Below, one piece after another: positions 457 to 58,788 of a stretch of 64,000 bases of DNA. The stretch's first letter is position 1. Each line of letters opens with the position of its first letter. The stretch is from Berkelbacteria bacterium GW2011_GWE1_39_12 (GTDB lineage: Bacteria; Patescibacteriota; UBA1384; UBA12157), in contig CP011213.1 in assembly GCA_001029735.1 (NCBI GenBank), forward strand, positions 848,298-912,297, given 5' to 3'. The translations under genes and the position numbers were made by a program. A model generated the notes under the pieces. It was not told where the DNA came from. It was given only the letters and a program-made list of their open reading frames with translations, and did no database searches.

Positions 457-570
457 ATGAAGGTTAGACCATCAGTTAAAAAAATTTGCCAGAAGTGTAA
501 AGTAATCCGAAGAAAAAATGTTATTCGGGTAATTTGTCAAAATCCAAAACACAAACAACGTCAAGGTTAA
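457..570 (+). CDS. rpmJ: 50S ribosomal protein L36
   Basis: 37 aa ORF below the track cutoff: [37 protein letters not shown]. Classic L36 zinc-ribbon sequence between infA and rpsM. Confidence 0.85.
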
Positions 571-585
571 TAACAGGAGTACCAT

Positions 586-972
586 ATGGCCCGTATTGCC
601 GGAGTAAACATCCCAGACAACAAACATGTAGAATATTCACTACCCTATATCAATGGGGTTGGTCTTTCGTTAGCTAAGAAAATCTGTGCTCAAGCAAACG
701 TGAAGTGCGGCACCAAAGTTTCCGATCTCACCACAACTGAAATTGACCGAATTCGCGAAGTTATCGATAAAAATTACAAGGTTGAAGGCGATTTGAAAAT
801 GGAAATCGCTCAAAATATTAAACGCTTAAAAGCAATCAGTTCATACCGCGGTTTAAGACACATGCGTAATTTGCCGGTTCACGGCCAACGCACTAAGACA
901 AATGCTCGCACAAAACGCGGCAAGAAAGTCACTGTTGGATCAGGCCGCAAGAAATCGGCTGAAAAGACATAA
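586..972 (+). CDS. rpsM: 30S ribosomal protein S13
   Basis: [10 protein letters not shown]...YRGLRH...; AGGAG RBS; conserved alpha-operon position. Confidence 0.95.
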
Positions 973-14023: not shown

Positions 14024-14098
14024 TGGTGGACCGTCGGGGACTCGAACCCCGGACCTCTTCCATGCCATGGAAGCATTCTACCACTGAACTAACGGCCC
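14024..14098 (-). tRNA. tRNA-Ala (anticodon GGC), CCA encoded
   Basis: Reverse complement GGGCCGTTAGTTCAGTGGTAGAATGCTTCCATGGCATGGAAGAGGTCCGGGGTTCGAGTCCCCGACGGTCCACCA. G3:U70 in the acceptor stem, anticodon loop AUGGCAU, T-loop GGTTCGAGTCC. Confidence 0.85.
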
Positions 14099-27770: not shown

Positions 27771-27902
27771 ATATAGGTTTTGAGCTAATCCGACAAGGAT
27801 CGCAGGAGTACTATAGTGCATCAGTAAGCTAAATTCATTAAATACACTAACTTATCGCTTTGATGGACCCGCCTTTAGGCATGCGGACACTCGAAAATGA
27901 CT

Positions 27903-27977
27903 GGTGGACCTGAGGAGACTCGAACTCCTTACCTCAGCAATGCGAATGCTGCGCTCTACCAGATGAGCTACAGGCCC
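27903..27977 (-). tRNA. tRNA-Ala (anticodon CGC), CCA encoded
   Basis: RC GGGCCTGTAGCTCATCTGGTAGAGCGCAGCATTCGCATTGCTGAGGTAAGGAGTTCGAGTCTCCTCAGGTCCACCA; G3:U70; anticodon loop UUCGCAU. Confidence 0.85.
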
Positions 27978-28178: not shown

Positions 28179-28264
28179 TGGTGCCCGAGGCGAGAATCGA
28201 ACTCGCATGAGCCGAAGCTCACAGCATTTTGAGTGCTGCGTGTCTACCGTTCCACCACCCGGGC
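28179..28264 (-). tRNA. tRNA-Leu (anticodon CAA), class II with long variable arm, CCA encoded
   Basis: RC GCCCGGGTGGTGGAACGGTAGACACGCAGCACTCAAAATGCTGTGAGCTTCGGCTCATGCGAGTTCGATTCTCGCCTCGGGCACCA; anticodon loop CUCAAAA. Confidence 0.85.
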
Positions 28265-48776: not shown

Positions 48777-49519
48777 CCATATTCCACCTCGTAGGTGGAA
48801 TATGGTTCAGCCTGCATAATCTTCGATAATTATTTTTCTAATAATGGATAGATTTTTTTGGTAGGATTTTCGATCATTAACAAATTCTTGATACTGCTTT
48901 GGCGTGAAATCAAACAACCCATCAAAAGAACATAATTGAAGGTTTGATTGCCCTAAATATTCTTGATAGGACGAAAAGTCCCAATCTTGAGGTTTTTTAA
49001 CCAAACCAGCTGATGTTGGATTGAGATGAATATAACGACTTAAATGCAGAAGCTGCTCATCTGATTTAACTAGAACGCTTTTAAACCTACCTGCCCATAA
49101 GGGCCCGGTTCTCTTAAATTTAATATTGTGATAACGAGTATAGCAATTAAGTGTTTTCGCCATAAAATTCGAGATTCCTTTGTCGGTAATTTGCTTCAAA
49201 ATTAAATGAATATGAGTTGGCATAAGACAATAGGCAATTATCTGCACGTCTACTTGACCAGACTTCTTCATCTCATTAATTATTGCGGCTTGTAATTTTT
49301 TATCTAAGTTTAAAAATCTCGAATATTTAAAATTAAAATTATTAAAGCGATATAGATCCAAGATGTTGATTAACCGATTAAAATCTTGAGCATTGTTAAA
49401 AATGACATATTTGGCGATGCTCCGACTATAAACATGATATACCGAGCCTGACACCAATGGTTCTTTTCTGTACTGCATAATATCACTATACCATATTCCA
49501 CCTACGAGGTGGAATATGG
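48777..49519. mobile_element. REP-associated tyrosine transposase (RAYT) unit: tnpA-REP flanked by two inverted 29-bp palindromic REP hairpins (CCATATTCCACCT-CGTA-GGTGGAATATGG at 48777-48805; reverse complement at 49491-49519)
   Basis: Flanking hairpins are exact reverse complements of each other and bracket the Y1-transposase gene. Confidence 0.7.
48807..49478 (-). CDS. REP-associated tyrosine transposase (IS200/IS605-like Y1 HUH transposase)
   Basis: ...YHVYSRSI...IIAYCLMPTHIHLIL... HUH motif and ...LSRYIHLNP... catalytic Tyr region; 223 aa. Confidence 0.8.
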   Translation of the reverse strand: MQYRKEPLVSGSVYHVYSRSIAKYVIFNNAQDFNRLINILDLYRFNNFNFKYSRFLNLDKKLQAAIINEMKKSGQVDVQIIAYCLMPTHIHLILKQITDKGISNFMAKTLNCYTRYHNIKFKRTGPLWAGRFKSVLVKSDEQLLHLSRYIHLNPTSAGLVKKPQDWDFSSYQEYLGQSNLQLCSFDGLFDFTPKQYQEFVNDRKSYQKNLSIIRKIIIEDYAG

Positions 49520-49953: not shown

Positions 49954-49982
49954 TTGACATTCGTTTTTTGTTCGCTTAGAGT
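49954..49982 (+). promoter_or_regulatory. lexA promoter (TTGACA-17-TAGAGT) with candidate SOS operator TTCGTTTTTTGTTCG (49960-49974) filling the spacer
   Basis: The same 15-nt motif (1 mismatch) fills the spacer of the dinB-operon promoter at 55623-55637. Confidence 0.55.
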
Positions 49983-50001
49983 AAATATATACAAACAAAA
50001 A

Positions 50002-50046
50002 GCGAAAAGGAGACCAATAGAAAAGAATACTTTTCGCGGAAATTTC
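50002..50046 (+). promoter_or_regulatory. lexA 5' UTR hairpin (GCGAAAAG-20 nt-CTTTTCGC) + GGAAATTTC element
   Basis: Same hairpin-GCGGAA(A)TT architecture as upstream of leuS, rpmF and porA. Confidence 0.4.
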
Positions 50047-50672: not shown

Positions 50673-50840
50673 ATGCTCTTAGAAACAGTCTCTAACTTAA
50701 TTTGGACCGGAGGTATGAATTTACCCGATGTGGCTTTAATCGTCGAAGATTGCTGCGATCCGATGGTTTTAGATACTTATAAAAAGGAGGAATGTGGAAA
50801 CGAAAATTCAAGTCATTTTAATCTTGCTCATCTTTAATAT
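50673..50840 (+). CDS. possible small ORF (55 aa) downstream of lexA, overlapping the next gene start
   Basis: AAAGGAGGGAAG then ATG; MLLETVSNLIWTGGMNLPDVALIVEDCCDPMVLDTYKKEECGNENSSHFNLAHL. Coding status uncertain. Confidence 0.25.
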
Positions 50841-51147
50841 TTTCTTTATTGTCCTTTGGCGGACGAACAAAAACCGCTACAACGATCTCGCTTTTCGCAA
50901 GCAATCTCTCTCGTCCCGCTACGGGAAAATGACCGAACAGTTTATGCCATTTTTAAAAGACTACCCATATGATCCATGTAACTTTCGTTTTCTAGGTTCG
51001 CCAATTGACGGTGTGCAATTTGAAGAGGATAAAGTCATTTTTATTGAGTTCAAAACAGCTAATTCTAAAATGAGCGACAAACAAAGAAATATCGCCGATC
51101 TCATCTACAGAAAAAAGATAGATTTTGAAGAACACCGGATTGATTGA
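50794..51147 (+). CDS. hypothetical membrane-anchored protein with PD-(D/E)xK-like motif (IDGVQFEEDKVIFIEFK)
   Basis: N-terminal TM helix; the D...E.K spacing suggests a restriction-endonuclease-like fold. Pattern-based. Confidence 0.4.
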   Translation: METKIQVILILLIFNIFFIVLWRTNKNRYNDLAFRKQSLSSRYGKMTEQFMPFLKDYPYDPCNFRFLGSPIDGVQFEEDKVIFIEFKTANSKMSDKQRNIADLIYRKKIDFEEHRID

Positions 51148-53345: not shown

Positions 53346-53407
53346 TATATTAGAGCCTCTAGATATGAAAAATCCCGCCTCTTAAAGAGACGGGGGTAAG
53401 TTCAACA

Positions 53408-53481
53408 TGTCAGCGTTCAGTTGACTGAACCTGTTCAACGCACTTTTTAAGGTGCAATCAGGTTCAGTCATTTTGCTGACA
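53408..53481 (+). other. nested/alternative palindrome cluster (TGTCAGC...GCTGACA outer; GTTCAG-TTGA-CTGAAC; TGACTGAACCTG...CAGGTTCAGTCA; GCAC-ttttt-aag-GTGC)
   Basis: All inverted repeats are perfect. CTGAAC can pair with either of two GTTCAG copies (mutually exclusive helices). Confidence 0.5.
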
Positions 53482-53620
53482 AGATCTATATTAGCACAAA
53501 ACTCAGCATTTGTCAATAGTTTTGGTCGTTTTTATGTTTACTTCTCTTTTTATAATGTTTAAGATAGCATCAATAGACAACCGCTCCTTCACAATTTCAG
53601 TCAGAAAGCGAGGTATAAAT

Positions 53621-55576
53621 ATGGGGGCTTGTAAAATATCTGTTTTTACAATAGATAAACGTGAAAGCCGTATTTTAGATGACGCCATTAACGTTGAACG
53701 GATAGCAAACGGATGGACATTAAGAGTCGCCATAACAGATACCACCGAGGAAATCATTAAAGGCTCTGTCAACGATCAGAAAGCCGAAAGCTTAATTCGA
53801 TCTCATTATTCCTCGTCCCGAGAGTTTCACAAGCACATGTTGCCGACCACTGTTAGTGAGAAGTTAAGTATGACAGAAGGAATGATACGTTCTGCCATTG
53901 TTGTCGATGTTTTTATCGATAAAAAAGGTAAGCTGGGTAAAGCAAAAATCCATCATAGTGAAGTCGAAATCAGACGCAAATTTACTTATGATGAAGTAAA
54001 CTCGATTCTTAGCTCCAGCCATCATGAAGATCCGTATGAAGGAACATTAAGAGAATGTTTTAAGCTTGCCAAATCTCTATTGAAGTACCGCAAAGCACTC
54101 GGCGCAATCACAATCAGTGATCAGTCAGGCTGGACGACAACGGAAGACGGTTTATTGGTAAAAATTTCGCCGGATGAAGTTGAAAGTCCTTCAAAATTGA
54201 TCATCTGTGAAATCAGGGTCGTCGTTAACCAACTAGTGGCTCAGTTCTTGGCAGCAAAGAAGATCCCAGCCCTTTATCGGAATCAAGAAGTTATATCTGG
54301 AGAGACGGATCGAAAACTGATAATCAGGGCGCTGCAAAAGATGGTTTTAAGCGCAGATTGCGCCGAACAACTTGCCAGACCAAACTGGACCGACAGCAGA
54401 TTAGGCATTGCCGTCTACAGTACTGAGCCAAAAGGCCATTTCGCCCTTAATCTTCCGGCCTACATCCATATCAATTCTCCACTTAGAAAATATGCTGATA
54501 TTGTGAACCAACGAATCTTAATGGCGACGATCAAAGGTGATTTGTCACCTTATTCAAAAGAAGAATTGGAGAAGATTGCCGAACGCATTAATAAGATAGA
54601 TCAGACCCGTATTGATGCAAGAAGGCAAATTTTCCATTGTATAGCGGAAGAATCTGCGGGCGAAGCCACAATCTTAAGGTCTAAAACCACCGACTTAGCG
54701 ATAAAGCTTTGCAACGTATTGCCCGAATCCCATACTAATATCCATTCGTGGGGCAACCCAATCTGCCTTGCTAACATTCTTTTATCCGAACCACCGATTC
54801 TCAGGCGGTATAAGTTGATTTTGCTTAAAGAGATCAAGAAGACAAAAGATCTATCCAAACGGATTCTAGCCGAGTGTAACCCGAATCTTTATTTCCAATA
54901 CCAAACCAATAAAGCGGGTAAGATAGTCATAACAGCTCATACCACTTATAAAGACATGAGCTACCAGGCGTCTGGCGTTAATGACGATTTGGCAGAAGCC
55001 ATTAACCTGGCTTGTTACCATCTTCTCTATCTAGTATCTGGTGCCGGCAAAATAGAAACTGATTACATCTCTAATGATCCTGAAACATTCTTCGGTGATC
55101 CGAAAGGACGATTAGAAGCTATTTGTCTTGATCACGGCTGGCCGATTCAATACCAGCTTCTAAAAAAGAGCTGTCAAAATTTCTATTTTCAGGCTAGATT
55201 AGACATCAATGACCATGCATTTTTTTCTGAAGTGCAAGAAGATAGTTCATATGAACTATCGCAGCAAAAAGCTGCTGCAGACTTATTGCACAAGTTAAAT
55301 GACGTTATATTTTTCATGATTAACCCATCCTTCTTGGAAATAGAGGAAGAAAATTACATCGATGCTTTGAACAAACTATCAGGAAACCTCCAAGCTAAGC
55401 TACCGGTGTACGAGATCAAGCTACCGACAAAAGACTCCCCACACTTTACATGCCACATCGAGTTTCAGCCCAATGGAAAGAGGTTTAGAAATACTGGAAC
55501 TGGAAATCGTAAAATATTGGCTAAAAATGCAGCCGCCAAGGCTATTTTAGCCGAATTATTCCCTTATCAATTCTAG
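53621..55576 (+). CDS. RNB-domain 3'-5' exoribonuclease (RNase II/R family) lacking N-terminal CSDs and S1, fused to 2-3 C-terminal dsRNA-binding domains
   Basis: RNB motifs ...FTIDKRESRILDDAI... and ...GHFALNLPAYIHINSPLRKYADIVNQRIL.... C-terminal dsRBD signature ...LPVYEIKLPTKDSPHFTCHIEFQPNGKRFRNTGTGNRKILAKNAAAKAILAEL.... Start at ATG 53621 (GAGGT upstream), not 53510. Confidence 0.75.
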   Translation: MGACKISVFTIDKRESRILDDAINVERIANGWTLRVAITDTTEEIIKGSVNDQKAESLIRSHYSSSREFHKHMLPTTVSEKLSMTEGMIRSAIVVDVFIDKKGKLGKAKIHHSEVEIRRKFTYDEVNSILSSSHHEDPYEGTLRECFKLAKSLLKYRKALGAITISDQSGWTTTEDGLLVKISPDEVESPSKLIICEIRVVVNQLVAQFLAAKKIPALYRNQEVISGETDRKLIIRALQKMVLSADCAEQLARPNWTDSRLGIAVYSTEPKGHFALNLPAYIHINSPLRKYADIVNQRILMATIKGDLSPYSKEELEKIAERINKIDQTRIDARRQIFHCIAEESAGEATILRSKTTDLAIKLCNVLPESHTNIHSWGNPICLANILLSEPPILRRYKLILLKEIKKTKDLSKRILAECNPNLYFQYQTNKAGKIVITAHTTYKDMSYQASGVNDDLAEAINLACYHLLYLVSGAGKIETDYISNDPETFFGDPKGRLEAICLDHGWPIQYQLLKKSCQNFYFQARLDINDHAFFSEVQEDSSYELSQQKAAADLLHKLNDVIFFMINPSFLEIEEENYIDALNKLSGNLQAKLPVYEIKLPTKDSPHFTCHIEFQPNGKRFRNTGTGNRKILAKNAAAKAILAELFPYQF

Positions 55577-55577
55577 A

Positions 55578-55602
55578 GCCACCCTAACAGGTGGCCCTTT
55601 TT
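55578..55602 (+). terminator. intrinsic terminator after the RNB gene (GCCACC-ctaacag-GGTGGC + T5)
   Basis: Perfect 6-bp stem and U-run. Confidence 0.65.
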
Positions 55603-55616
55603 ATTTATTAAAATTA

Positions 55617-55645
55617 TTGCTTTTCGCTTTTTGTTCGGCTAATAT
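55617..55645 (+). promoter_or_regulatory. promoter (TTGCTT-17-TAATAT) of small-ORF-dinB operon with candidate SOS operator TTCGCTTTTTGTTCG (55623-55637) in the spacer
   Basis: Same architecture as the lexA promoter. Confidence 0.5.
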
Positions 55646-55651
55646 TTAATT

Positions 55652-55873
55652 ATGGAACAAATAAAAGTTTTAGCCAAATTTAATCTAGATAAAATCGAAA
55701 TAGCCGCTTTTAGTCGAGCGGGGCGGTCTTATAAAATAACTCGTCAAAACTTCGTTCATCATTTCCGCGAAGGCGACCGAACGATTTTTATTTTCCATGT
55801 TTCCGACGAAGCCAATACTTATCAACTACGTTTCGAGCCAGAAACATTAAAGTGGTTTTTGGTAGAGGACTAA
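55652..55873 (+). CDS. hypothetical small protein (73 aa) co-oriented and adjacent (7-nt gap) upstream of dinB
   Basis: ORF with good periodicity; possible Y-family polymerase accessory (UmuD/YolD-like role is speculative). Confidence 0.45.
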   Translation: MEQIKVLAKFNLDKIEIAAFSRAGRSYKITRQNFVHHFREGDRTIFIFHVSDEANTYQLRFEPETLKWFLVED

Positions 55874-58353: not shown

Positions 58354-58788
58354 ATGAAATTAGAATTCTCTGCTGGTGGTATCGTCTACAAAAAACAAGG
58401 GGACGATATTTATTTTGCTGTAATCCTAAATCATGACAAGCAATGGACTTTTCCAAAAGGTCATATTGAGAAAGGCGAGAAACCGGAAGAAGCTGCCATA
58501 AGAGAGGTCGGGGAAGAAATTGGTATCCCTAATTTACAAATCGAAAACTTACTAGAAAAAATTGATTATTGGTTTGTATTTAAAGGGGATAAGATCCATA
58601 AGTTTGTTTATTTCTATCTATTAGAGGCACCCGCTGAGGCAGAACTCATACCTCAACTAGAAGAAGTCGGTGATGCTCAATGGCTTAAGCCAACTGAATT
58701 GTTAGATAGTCTCAAATACAAAGAGGATTTTTCTATTACAAAAAAAGCATTTTCTCTGTTAAAAATAGATTCCATCTTTAATAAATAA
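58354..58788 (+). CDS. NUDIX hydrolase
   Basis: Nudix box ...GHIEKGEKPEEAAIREVGEEIGI...; 144 aa. Confidence 0.8.
   Translation: MKLEFSAGGIVYKKQGDDIYFAVILNHDKQWTFPKGHIEKGEKPEEAAIREVGEEIGIPNLQIENLLEKIDYWFVFKGDKIHKFVYFYLLEAPAEAELIPQLEEVGDAQWLKPTELLDSLKYKEDFSITKKAFSLLKIDSIFNK

What the first reader, a model, noticed from the sequence alone, without database searches (positions are those of the whole stretch)
53621..55576. Unusual domain architecture: RNB exoribonuclease core fused to tandem dsRNA-binding domains, without CSD or S1
The N-terminal ~430 residues are a recognisable RNB catalytic domain (DDA motif and the conserved ...HFALNL..YIHINSPLRKYADI... segment). Canonical RNase II/R have two N-terminal cold-shock domains and a C-terminal S1 domain. 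Here the protein starts directly with RNB and ends with two or three dsRBD-like modules; the last is a textbook dsRBD (...GNRKILAKNAAAKAILAEL). A 3'-5' exonuclease targeted by dsRBDs would act on structured or duplex RNA. That could mean rRNA/tRNA maturation in a reduced genome, or an RNA-directed defence or regulatory nuclease. I am not aware of this combination as a described family. A 73-aa ORF and dinB follow downstream under a putative LexA-controlled promoter.
Basis: partly seen in the sequence, partly recalled or inferred. Interest (0 to 1): 0.65.

Follow-up and report, generated by a model that had tools for sequence, protein, structure and literature searches.

The report
RNase II-type exonuclease with dsRNA-binding tail
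The gene is real and intact: an RNA-chewing enzyme of the RNase II/R type that has swapped its usual single-strand RNA-binding domains for double-strand RNA-binding ones, and it belongs to a large, unstudied family found mostly on big plasmids and giant virus-like contigs.

Summary
Observation confirmed. Window 53621-55576 (+) is one intact 651-aa ORF. It has an RNB catalytic domain starting at residue 6 (Pfam E 2.5e-52), no CSD or S1, a helical linker, then tandem dsRBDs. Two dsRBDs are supported by sequence; a third, degenerate module rests only on the full-length AF2 model.

It is not unique. A search of 1.84 billion representatives gives 270 relatives at E<1e-30, and 64 of 70 sampled nearest ones are RNB+dsrm. 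Members occur in Ktedonobacteria, Streptomyces, cyanobacteria, Patescibacteria and Nanoarchaeia. They also occur on 66 PLSDB plasmids and at least 12 IMG/VR contigs of 48-536 kb.

No curated NCBIfam or PADLOC model fits it. No paper in the held library, including a 2025 RNB-family review, describes the fusion. NCBI's name "Exoribonuclease R" fails the RNase R membership test.

In this Berkelbacteria genome the gene lies in a 2.27-kb cassette that is missing from two syntenic relatives, so it is accessory rather than core.

The catalytic set is kept except the second of four Asp (I18), a position where human HELZ2 tolerates Asn.

Most likely it is an uncapped 3'-5' exoribonuclease tethered to duplex or structured RNA. 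The activity is untested.

The parts
53621..55576 (+). CDS, 651 aa: RNB-dsRBD exoribonuclease-like protein (stop codon included)
   Evidence: ORF. Pfam RNB plus dsrm. Identical protein P0001 from Berkelbacteria bacterium GW2011_GWE1_39_12. Second identical assembly.
53610..53613 (+). Shine-Dalgarno-like GAGG, 7 nt before ATG 53621
   Evidence: Read directly from the sequence. Relatives also start 5-50 aa before motif I.
53636..54655 (+). RNB catalytic domain (aa 6-345)
   Evidence: Pfam aa 6-304, E 2.5e-52. AF2 core runs to helix 313-347. Foldseek to RNase R 5xgu, E 1.5e-21.
53654..53683 (+). Motif I, D12-K-R-E-S-R-I18-L-D20-D21. These correspond to E. coli RNase II D201, D207 (here Ile, codon ATT 53672-53674), D209 and D210.
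   Evidence: Alignment to 2id0_A and 7dcy_A. This position is D in 99% of 149 relatives.
54476..54502 (+). Motif IV, S286-P-L-R289-K-Y-A-D-I. R289 corresponds to RNase II R500.
   Evidence: Alignment to 2id0_A.
54683..54874 (+). Helical linker (aa 355-418), conserved in the family, no Pfam match
   Evidence: AF2 helices at 355-418, pLDDT 52-88. No Pfam hit for aa 305-443. Family consensus.
54851..55036 (+). Module 1 (aa 411-472): degenerate, tentative dsRBD-like alpha-beta3-alpha
   Evidence: Full-length AF2 topology, pLDDT ~73-90. Only 2.7 bits to the family dsRBD HMM. The fragment model disagrees at low confidence.
55097..55321 (+). dsRBD 2 (aa 493-567): lacks the GPxH-like and KKxAK-like RNA-contact motifs, net acidic
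   Evidence: Pfam dsrm 18.4 bits alone. Family HMM iE 4e-9. Motif and charge comparison. AF2.
55352..55558 (+). dsRBD 3 (aa 578-646): canonical, with SPH loop and GTGNRKILAK...AAAKAIL
   Evidence: Pfam dsrm 30.9 bits alone. NCBIfam RNase III C-terminal match at aa 572-645, E 3e-4. Family HMM iE 9e-17. Motifs.
55578..55605 (+). Terminator-like hairpin plus T-run immediately after the stop codon
   Evidence: Sequence.
53346..55616 (.). 2.27-kb cassette (upstream hairpin region, gene, terminator), present here but absent between MBL and ORF72-dinB in syntenic relatives
   Evidence: Gene orders of L178 and L175-177. No tblastn hit in those loci, and DNA homology resumes at window 55617-55623. Junction alignment.
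53368..53482 (-). Candidate ~115-nt structured RNA inside the cassette, divergent from the nuclease gene. It comprises a promoter-like site (53516->53488), a long hairpin (53408-53481) and an intrinsic-terminator-like site (53394->53374 plus T-run). Its link to the nuclease is unproven.
   Evidence: Fold -49.2 kcal/mol, z = -7.0. No Rfam family.

Best explanation
This is an intact gene for a non-canonical member of the RNase II/R (RNB) superfamily.

Anatomy. The catalytic RNB barrel starts at the N-terminus. The CSD1/CSD2/S1 cap, which in RNase II and RNase R funnels single-stranded 3' tails into the active site, is absent. In its place the C-terminus carries a helical linker and flexibly tethered dsRBD modules. 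One is canonical, one is degenerate and one is tentative.

Family. It is a very divergent member of a large, uncharacterised RNB-dsRBD family. That family is carried mainly by megaplasmids, giant virus-like contigs and scattered chromosomes. In this Berkelbacteria genome it is an accessory gene in a 2.27-kb cassette that syntenic relatives lack.

Proposed mechanism (inferred). The C-terminal dsRBD docks on A-form duplex: hairpins, sense-antisense duplexes, or RNase III products. This places a nearby 3' end at the uncapped RNB channel. The Mg2+-dependent active site (D12, D20, D21, R289, Y63) then removes nucleotides 3'->5'. Structured RNA with little or no 3' overhang would therefore be degraded.

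Shown here: the domain architecture, the fold, retention of 3 of 4 Asp plus Arg and Tyr, family membership, the association with mobile elements, and the cassette indel.

Inferred: nuclease activity, dsRNA binding, substrate class and biological role.
For: Architecture and fold.

Catalytic residues aligned to RNase II and RNase R structures: D12=D201, D20=D209, D21=D210, Y63=Y253 (via the RNase R alignment), R289=R500. Their roles are given in PMC3293843 and PMC8096214: Mg2+ is held by the first and fourth Asp.

The missing second Asp is compatible with activity. Human HELZ2 naturally has Asn there and is an active 3'-5' exoribonuclease (PMC10516660).

An uncapped RNB can attack duplex. [quoted passage not shown]

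Family:
- 270 representatives at E<1e-30, with RNB at the N-terminus.
- 64 of 70 sampled have dsrm.
- 2 or 3 dsRBDs in 135 of 160.
- The family dsRBD consensus keeps the GPSH and KKEAK motifs.

Mobile-element association:
- 66 plasmids at E<=1e-40; all 9 checked have RNB plus 2-3 dsRBDs.
- 12 IMG/VR contigs.

Accessory status here.

Own RBS and terminator-like hairpin.
Against: - No biochemical data exist for any member in the literature I could search.
- I18 replaces an Asp that is 99% conserved in the family. The query deviates at 16 of 61 highly conserved family columns (median 3), including Q196C, M199R, H222Q, T285N and R290K. Activity could therefore be weak or lost.
- The HELZ2 precedent is Asp->Asn, not Asp->Ile.
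- Two of the three dsRBD-like modules lack the canonical RNA-contact motifs.
- pTM is 0.68, and I could not inspect the inter-domain geometry, so placement of the dsRBDs relative to the channel is unknown.
- The cassette's GC and GC3 are not anomalous, and no donor closer than 37% identity exists. Loss in the relatives rather than gain here cannot be excluded.
Confidence: 0.6

Rival explanations
1. Housekeeping replacement for RNase R. It would be the genome's general 3'-5' exoribonuclease for rRNA/tRNA maturation and mRNA decay in a reduced (~0.9 Mb) CPR genome.
For: NCBI annotates it as 'Exoribonuclease R'. The genome is small, with the longest contig at 915 kb. The neighbourhood is chromosomal and housekeeping-like. 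Composition is ameliorated.
Against: The gene is absent from the same syntenic slot in two related genomes. The family is sporadic and largely borne on mobile elements. Neighbourhoods are not conserved. The protein fails the RNase R and RNase II equivalog cutoffs. I could not scan the rest of the genome for another RNB gene.
Confidence: 0.12
2. Pseudonuclease or RNA-binding regulator. The RNB fold and dsRBDs would bind structured RNA without degrading it, as yeast Ssd1 does.
For: The second catalytic Asp is lost and divergence at conserved family positions is unusually high. Two other family members have clearly lost catalytic residues: P0143 (second Asp->Leu, R500 equivalent->Trp) and P0149 (first Asp->Thr, fourth Asp->Phe, Arg->Gly). 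Inactive derivatives therefore do arise in this family.
Against: The Mg2+-binding first and fourth Asp, the essential third Asp, Arg289 and Tyr63 are all kept. Substitution at the second Asp is tolerated in HELZ2. Ssd1 has lost its catalytic residues, per the review.
Confidence: 0.15
3. Conflict-system nuclease of mobile elements. It would be an anti-defence or plasmid/phage-fitness factor that removes duplex or structured RNAs, such as antisense-target duplexes or immunogenic RNAs. Alternatively it is a defence nuclease against RNA from invaders. The CPR copy would be a captured one.
For: The family is enriched on megaplasmids and on 48-536-kb IMG/VR contigs. Some metagenomic contexts contain HNH, STAND-type ATPases and integrases. 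The distribution across phyla and domains is patchy. The gene is a cassette indel here.
Against: There is no PADLOC hit and no conserved partner gene. Many plasmid contexts are backbone replication, repair or partition genes rather than defence islands. The viral status of the IMG/VR contigs was not verified.
Confidence: 0.15
4. Nuclease acting on RNA:DNA hybrids or R-loops, linked to DNA replication and repair.
For: DNA-metabolism neighbours recur: lexA, a Holliday-junction-resolvase-like gene and dinB here; uvrB in a Patescibacteria locus; RNase H 4 nt downstream in L081; recA and a RecD-like helicase on Acaryochloris plasmids; UvrD, DNA ligase and dnaB on other plasmids.
Against: The partners differ from one locus to another, and such genes are common in plasmid backbones. 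Here the adjacency to dinB arises from a cassette inserted into a pre-existing lexA...dinB block. There is no LexA-like box upstream of the gene. RNB enzymes are RNA-specific hydrolases, from established knowledge.
Confidence: 0.06
5. Artefact: a truncated or frameshifted canonical RNase R whose CSD and S1 parts were missed.
For: The database name is 'Exoribonuclease R'.
Against: Upstream lies a 275-nt non-coding spacer after the MBL gene, with no CSD-like ORF. The C-terminus is dsRBD, not S1. About 150 nearest relatives share the N-terminal RNB start. The sequence is identical in a second assembly.
Confidence: 0.02

Closest known systems
RNase R (E. coli 5XGU; Mycoplasma genitalium 7DCY; B. 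subtilis 8CDU)
   Same: Best sequence and fold matches for the catalytic core. The RNB motifs are the same, with a Mg2+ site formed by the first and fourth Asp. RNase R degrades structured RNA, and its isolated RNB domain attacks duplex with or without an overhang.
   Different: The query has no HTH, CSD1, CSD2, S1 or K/R-rich tail. It scores 147.8 bits against the 597.85 equivalog cutoff. It carries dsRBDs instead. Its tri-helix region is ~18 aa shorter than in RNase R (alignment). The second catalytic Asp is Ile.
RNase II (E. coli 2IX1/2ID0)
   Same: Same RNB fold and motifs. Motif IV (SPLRKYADIVNQR) resembles RNase II's SPIRKYGDMINHR.
   Different: RNase II has the CSD1/CSD2/S1 clamp and stalls at duplexes. 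The query scores 78-98 bits against cutoffs of 542-642.
Minimal RNB proteins: Deinococcus radiodurans RNase II (2R7D) and Haloferax volcanii RNase R
   Same: These are the known RNB enzymes 'with minimal accessory domains' (review PMC12320835). 2R7D is a weak sequence hit (E 2e-4) and a fold hit.
   Different: They carry no dsRBDs. The query's family adds a conserved helical linker and 2-3 dsRBDs.
Human HELZ2
   Same: An RNB enzyme with unusual accessory domains. The second of the four conserved Asp is naturally substituted, yet it is an active 3'-5' exoribonuclease (PMC10516660).
   Different: HELZ2 keeps CSDs and an S1-like domain and is flanked by two helicase domains. Its substitution is Asn, not Ile. 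It is eukaryotic.
Yeast Ssd1 (7AM1), an RNB pseudonuclease
   Same: Shares the RNB fold. It shows that RNB proteins can become pure RNA binders. Two members of the query's family (P0143, P0149) look similarly inactivated.
   Different: The query keeps 3 of 4 Asp plus the Arg and Tyr.
Bacterial RNase III dsRBD and eukaryotic tandem-dsRBD proteins (TARBP2, Loquacious-PB)
   Same: The C-terminal module matches the RNase III C-terminal dsRBD (TIGR02191 positions 146-218, E 3e-4). The tail as a whole superposes on the TARBP2 and Loqs-PB dsRBD arrays.
   Different: In those proteins the dsRBDs serve an endonuclease (RNase III, Dicer). Here they are fused to a processive exonuclease core.

Membership tests
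RNase II/R (RNB) superfamily, PF00773 | RNB domain above the Pfam gathering score | tested here: met
   178.6 bits against 29.3, aa 6-304
RNase II/R (RNB) superfamily, PF00773 | RNB fold | tested here: met
   AF2 pLDDT >95 over most of aa 11-220. Foldseek E 1.5e-21 to 5xgu.
RNase II/R (RNB) superfamily, PF00773 | Four conserved Asp of motif I (RNase II D201, D207, D209, D210) | tested here: not met
   D12, I18, D20, D21: the second is Ile. The first and fourth (Mg2+ ligands) and the third (essential) are present.
RNase II/R (RNB) superfamily, PF00773 | Arg500 and Tyr253 equivalents | tested here: met
   R289 aligns to R500. Y63 aligns to the RNase R Tyr equivalent to Y253.
RNase II/R (RNB) superfamily, PF00773 | Mg2+-dependent processive 3'-5' exoribonuclease activity | not testable with these tools
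   Needs biochemistry.
RNase R (TIGR02063 equivalog), the name given by NCBI | Whole-protein score above the equivalog cutoff | tested here: not met
   147.8 against 597.85. PRK11642 scores 74.6 against 982.
RNase R (TIGR02063 equivalog), the name given by NCBI | N-terminal CSD1/CSD2 and C-terminal S1 domains | tested here: not met
   No such Pfam hit at E<=1. RNB starts at residue 6. The C-terminus is dsRBD.
RNase II (TIGR02062 / NF003455) | Whole-protein score above the equivalog cutoff | tested here: not met
   78.1 against 641.9 and 98.5 against 542.
dsRBD (PF00035) | dsrm match above the gathering score | tested here: met
   41.3 bits for the whole protein. The C-terminal module alone scores 30.9 against 23.
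dsRBD (PF00035) | alpha-beta-beta-beta-alpha fold | tested here: met
   Met for modules 2 and 3 (TARBP2 and Loqs matches). Module 1 is inconclusive: the full-length model says yes, the fragment model says no at pLDDT 59, and it scores 2.7 bits.
dsRBD (PF00035) | RNA-contact motifs (His in the beta1-beta2 loop; basic KKxAK at the start of helix 2) | tested here: inconclusive
   Present in module 3 (SPH; NRKILAK). Absent in modules 1 and 2, and module 2 is net acidic.
dsRBD (PF00035) | Binding to double-stranded RNA | not testable with these tools
   Needs EMSA or fluorescence polarization.
Uncharacterised RNB-dsRBD family ('RNB domain-containing ribonuclease' in RefSeq) | RNB at the N-terminus without CSDs, a conserved helical linker, and 2-3 C-terminal dsRBDs | tested here: met
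   The query's nearest 149 representatives have RNB starting at residues ~5-60. 64 of 70 sampled have dsrm. 135 of 160 have 2-3 dsRBDs. The query has the same order of parts.
Ssd1-like RNB pseudonucleases | Loss of the catalytic Asp/Arg set | tested here: not met
   Only one of four Asp is lost, and Arg289 is kept.
Known anti-phage defence systems (PADLOC-DB v2) | Match to any defence-protein model | tested here: not met
   0 families at E<=0.1.

The most novel reading that the evidence does not exclude
RNB-dsRBD proteins may be a mobile-element-borne class of dsRNA-directed 3'-5' exoribonucleases. Megaplasmids and giant phages would use them to clear duplex or structured RNAs, such as antisense-target duplexes, RNase III products or RNAs that trigger host immunity. 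The Berkelbacteria copy would be a captured cassette that arrived together with its own divergently transcribed hairpin RNA (53368-53482, minus strand), acting as substrate, decoy or regulator.
Probability: 0.12. Interest if true: 0.8.

Novelty: new variant of a known kind. Interest (0 to 1): 0.55.

Why it matters
Bacterial RNA decay models have no dedicated exonuclease for duplex RNA. RNase R needs a single-stranded 3' tail, and RNase III only cuts. A family that fuses the RNB core to dsRBDs would fill that gap. It has hundreds of 50%-identity clusters and is present in culturable Pseudomonas, Rhodococcus, Streptomyces and Acaryochloris plasmids, so it is directly testable.

Its concentration on megaplasmids and giant virus-like contigs, together with inactivated derivatives, suggests an unexplored layer of RNA control in mobile elements.

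Practically, the NCBI label 'Exoribonuclease R' for this protein should not be used to infer that this CPR genome has RNase R.

Tried and rejected
- A profile search with the search for homologous proteins (A3) returned essentially the same 29 proteins as the single-sequence search and added no taxonomy.
Only L001, L002 and L006 were family members.
- Two cluster-member runs gave only one organism name, Nanoarchaeia.
- The afdb50 fold library was unavailable.
- The fragment alignment A4 was smeared across full-length sequences and was unusable. The fragment model from A5 had pLDDT 59 and was all-helical. No fold search was run on it, and module 1 stays unresolved.
- hhalign of module 1 against the family's first dsRBD gave probability 0.65%.
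- Papers giving the D207N phenotype of RNase II were not in the library.
- I looked for transposon-like terminal repeats, or copies of the cassette ends elsewhere in the window. None were found beyond the LexA-like box.
- Composition gave no signal of recent transfer.
- There is no Rfam family for the upstream hairpin.
- I considered whether the LexA-like box controls the nuclease and rejected it. There is none upstream, and a terminator-like hairpin lies between.
Full report
**1. What is at the coordinates.**
An uninterrupted reading frame runs 53510-55576 on the plus strand. The probable start is ATG 53621, preceded by GAGG at 53610-53613, giving 651 aa. The identical protein is P0001 from 'Berkelbacteria bacterium GW2011_GWE1_39_12', on a 915-kb contig, named 'Exoribonuclease R' by NCBI. 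A second assembly is 100% identical over 11.76 kb, so the frame is not an assembly artefact.

Pfam finds RNB at aa 6-304 (E 2.5e-52) and dsrm (41.3 bits). No CSD, OB_RNB, S1 or KH match appears at E<=1. Taken alone, the C-terminal module scores 30.9 bits (above the cutoff of 23) and the middle module 18.4 bits. A dsRBD HMM iterated on the family scores these at iE 9e-17 and 4e-9. NCBIfam matches RNase R and RNase II models only over the RNB core and far below their cutoffs. It matches the RNase III model only over its C-terminal dsRBD.

**2. Structure.**
AF2 with a 150-sequence family alignment gives mean pLDDT 87.3 and pTM 0.68. The model has:
- an RNB core ending in a long helix at 313-347;
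- helices at 355-418;
- three alpha-beta3-alpha modules at 411-472, 494-567 and 579-646, with a disordered spacer at 480-491.

In Foldseek against the PDB, the core matches RNase R, RNase II, Dis3L2 and Rrp44 (E 1e-21 to 1e-16). The tail matches the tandem-dsRBD proteins TARBP2 and Loquacious-PB over ~250-266 columns.

Module 1 is uncertain. It scores 2.7 bits to the dsRBD HMM. A fragment-only prediction with a shallow alignment was all-helical at pLDDT 59. I therefore count two dsRBDs as established and one as tentative.

Only module 3 keeps the canonical RNA-contact motifs (SPH loop; NRKILAK...AAAKAIL). Module 2 lacks them and is net acidic.

**3. Active site.**
Alignment to E. coli RNase II (2ID0) and to RNase R structures gives these equivalences:
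- D12 = D201
- I18 = D207
- D20 = D209
- D21 = D210
- R289 = R500
- Y63 = the Tyr253 equivalent

The four Asp and Arg500 are described as the active site, with D209 the most critical (PMC3293843). Mg2+ is held by the first and fourth Asp (PMC8096214). The second Asp is D in 99% of 149 relatives. Here it is ATT (53672-53674), two substitutions away from an Asp codon.

Human HELZ2 naturally has Asn at this same position and is an active 3'-5' exoribonuclease. The authors note that this residue contacts substrate rather than metal (PMC10516660). So activity is plausible but not assured.

The query is also the most divergent full-length member in the alignment, deviating at 16 of 61 highly conserved columns against a median of 3. 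Two relatives have plainly lost catalytic residues. P0143 has the second Asp changed to Leu and the Arg500 equivalent changed to Trp. P0149 has the first Asp changed to Thr, the fourth Asp to Phe, and the Arg to Gly.

**4. It is a family, not a singleton.**
An exhaustive HMMER search of 1.84 billion representatives found 9223 hits at E<=1e-3 and 270 at E<=1e-30. In the best 150 the RNB domain begins within ~60 residues of the N-terminus and lengths are mostly 590-900 aa. Of 70 sampled, all have RNB and 64 have dsrm. With the family dsRBD HMM, 65 of 160 have two dsRBDs, 70 have three and 8 have four. No relative exceeds 37% identity to the query.

Named members come from Ktedonobacteraceae and Thermogemmatispora, a Nanoarchaeia archaeon, a Streptomyces chromosome contig, an uncultured cyanobacterium and a Patescibacteria MAG.

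A tblastn of a typical member (P0037) against PLSDB finds 66 plasmids at E<=1e-40: Rhodococcus 29, Acaryochloris 14, Pseudomonas 6, Streptomyces 5, Gordonia 4, and also Variovorax, Mycobacterium/Mycolicibacterium and Methylorubrum. All nine plasmid genes I translated have an RNB domain with no CSD and 2-3 dsRBDs; the two Acaryochloris proteins also carry a ~150-aa N-terminal extension before the RNB domain.

In IMG/VR the twelve best-scoring loci that carry dsRBDs lie on contigs of 48-536 kb. I did not verify that these are viruses. Their neighbours include thymidylate synthase, an ADP-ribosylglycohydrolase and a transglycosylase. GenBank phage records gave only canonical RNase R-like hits covering the RNB part.

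**5. Gene neighbourhoods.**
No partner gene is conserved.
- Metagenomic Ktedonobacteria-like contexts include an RNase H gene 4 nt downstream, STAND-type ATPases, HNH genes and integrases.
- A cyanobacterial locus has a methyltransferase upstream and a NUDIX gene downstream. A Patescibacteria locus has uvrB and an IS fragment.
- Plasmid contexts are backbone-like: recA plus a RecD-like helicase, UvrD plus a replication initiator, DNA ligases, ParA/ParB, dnaB, and DndC or PAPS-reductase-like genes.
- There is no PADLOC match.

**6. Status in this genome.**
ORF73, immediately downstream, has 64-74% identical homologues that lead to syntenic contigs of related genomes.
- Relative B (L178) has NTP-transferase / 182-aa gene / MBL hydrolase / ORF72 / dinB. 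Only 49 nt separate the MBL stop from the ORF72 start.
- Relative A (L175-177) has lexA / Holliday-junction-resolvase-like gene / 190-aa gene / ORF72 / dinB / NUDIX / histidine kinase.

Neither locus encodes an RNB protein (tblastn). DNA homology to the window resumes at 55617-55623.

Thus window 53346-~55616 (2.27 kb) is an insertion/deletion cassette. It contains the upstream hairpin region, the gene and its terminator-like hairpin (55578-55605). Its GC (0.405) and GC3 (0.41) are within the window's range, and it has no terminal repeats. The direction of the event (gain here or loss in relatives) is therefore inferred from the family's patchy, mobile-element-rich distribution rather than shown. 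Either way the gene is dispensable in close relatives at this locus. That argues against a core rRNA/tRNA-maturation role.

**7. Mechanism proposed.**
In RNase II and RNase R, the CSD1/CSD2/S1 domains cap the RNB channel and bind the single-stranded 3' tail. The isolated RNB domain of RNase R still degrades RNA and can attack duplex with or without an overhang (PMC5714204; PMC12320835).

By inference, an RNB core that is naturally uncapped and tethered through a flexible spacer to dsRBDs would work as follows. It would be recruited to A-form helices and would engage adjacent 3' ends. It would then degrade hairpins, sense-antisense duplexes or RNase III products that other exonucleases handle poorly.

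Shown: architecture, fold, residue conservation, family and genomic status. Inferred: activity, dsRNA binding, substrates and biological role. I put 0.6 on this reading.

The main rivals are:
- an inactive RNA-binding derivative (0.15);
- a conflict or plasmid-fitness role for the same chemistry (0.15, not exclusive);
- a housekeeping RNase R substitute (0.12);
- an RNA:DNA-hybrid or repair role (0.06);
- an artefact (0.02).

**8. Comparison with what is known.**
The protein is a member of the RNB superfamily by domain score and fold. It is not RNase R or RNase II: it fails both equivalog cutoffs and lacks CSD and S1.

A 2025 review lists the known departures from the standard RNB architecture as Ssd1, D. 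radiodurans RNase II and Haloferax RNase R. It never mentions dsRBDs. Full-text searches for RNB with dsRBD or dsrm found no description of the fusion.

I therefore class it as a new variant of a known kind. The enzyme class is familiar. The accessory-domain solution, and the family that carries it, appear to be unstudied, although the proteins are already in public databases under generic names.

**9. The downstream LexA remark.**
The 15-mer TTCGYTTTTTGTTYG occurs exactly three times in the 64-kb window. Two copies lie in inverted orientation before lexA and one lies before ORF73-dinB. The same boxes are conserved at the same places in relatives A and B. This supports an SOS-type operator for lexA and ORF73-dinB. 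The nuclease gene lies upstream of that box, has its own terminator-like hairpin, and has no such box in front of it.

Noticed in passing
window 53368-53482 (minus strand), within the intergenic stretch 53346-53620: Candidate ~115-nt structured RNA, divergent from the nuclease gene. It has a sigma70-like promoter (TTGACA-17-TAATAT with TG, 53516->53488), a long hairpin (53408-53481, including a perfect 12-bp stem) and an intrinsic-terminator-like hairpin with a T-run (53394->53374). It folds at -49.2 kcal/mol, z = -7.0. No Rfam family matches. It lies inside the cassette that relatives lack, so its conservation could not be tested.
   Followed up: partly
window 49960-49974 (+), 49992-50006 (-), 55623-55637 (+); L175 8208-8222, 8241-8255 and 9973-9987; L178 1958-1972: Candidate LexA operator TTCGYTTTTTGTTYG, a TTCG-N7-TTCG direct-repeat type. 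It occurs exactly three times in the window, only before lexA and ORF73-dinB. It is conserved in two related genomes at the same sites.
   Followed up: yes
window 55652-55873 (+): ORF73 has no Pfam, PHROG or PADLOC family. It is conserved at 64-74% identity and always lies immediately upstream of dinB, behind the LexA-like box, in related genomes. It may be an unrecognised accessory factor of the translesion polymerase.
   Followed up: partly
proteins P0143 and P0149 (family members from metagenomes): These are apparent pseudonuclease derivatives of the RNB-dsRBD family. P0143 has the second Asp changed to Leu and the Arg500 equivalent changed to Trp. P0149 has the first Asp changed to Thr, the fourth Asp to Phe and the Arg to Gly, and still carries three good dsRBD sequences.
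   Followed up: partly
L081 10266-10691; L002 7725-8150; L088 6121-6921; L090 3491-5038: Several neighbours of family members may be meaningful. An RNase H gene lies 4 nt downstream. A NUDIX gene lies 5 nt downstream in a cyanobacterium; the window also has a NUDIX gene at 58354-58788. PAPS-reductase or DndC-like genes lie upstream on a Pseudomonas and a Streptomyces plasmid. None is consistently present.
   Followed up: partly
L086 and L087 (Acaryochloris marina plasmids pREB1 and pREB2) and other Acaryochloris plasmids: Several paralogous RNB-dsRBD genes occur per strain, on different plasmids. Each lies in a repeated block of PBP1A / RecD-like helicase / recA / GNAT / RNB-dsRBD. These copies have a ~150-aa N-terminal extension.
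   Followed up: partly
window 48807-49478 (minus strand; from L085 1928-2599): An IS200/IS605-type Y1 transposase gene lies just upstream of lexA. No sequence link to the cassette ends was found.
   Followed up: partly
window 50794-51147 (+): A 117-aa protein of the 'endonuclease related to archaeal Holliday junction resolvase' family (PF10107, E 2e-19) lies directly after lexA. The lexA/resolvase-like pairing is conserved in relative A.
   Followed up: no
database record for P0001: The NCBI and UniRef name 'Exoribonuclease R, ribonuclease R' is a misannotation by the family's own criteria: 147.8 bits against a cutoff of 597.85, with no CSD or S1. JGI likewise labels relatives 'ribonuclease R'.
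   Followed up: yes
window 514-618 (+); 14024-14098, 27902-27977 and 28179-28264 (minus strand): Ordinary features seen elsewhere in the window: an Alpha-operon ribosome-binding-site leader (Rfam RF00140, 38.6 bits against a cutoff of 38) and three tRNA genes (Ala-GGC, Ala-CGC, Leu-CAA).
   Followed up: no
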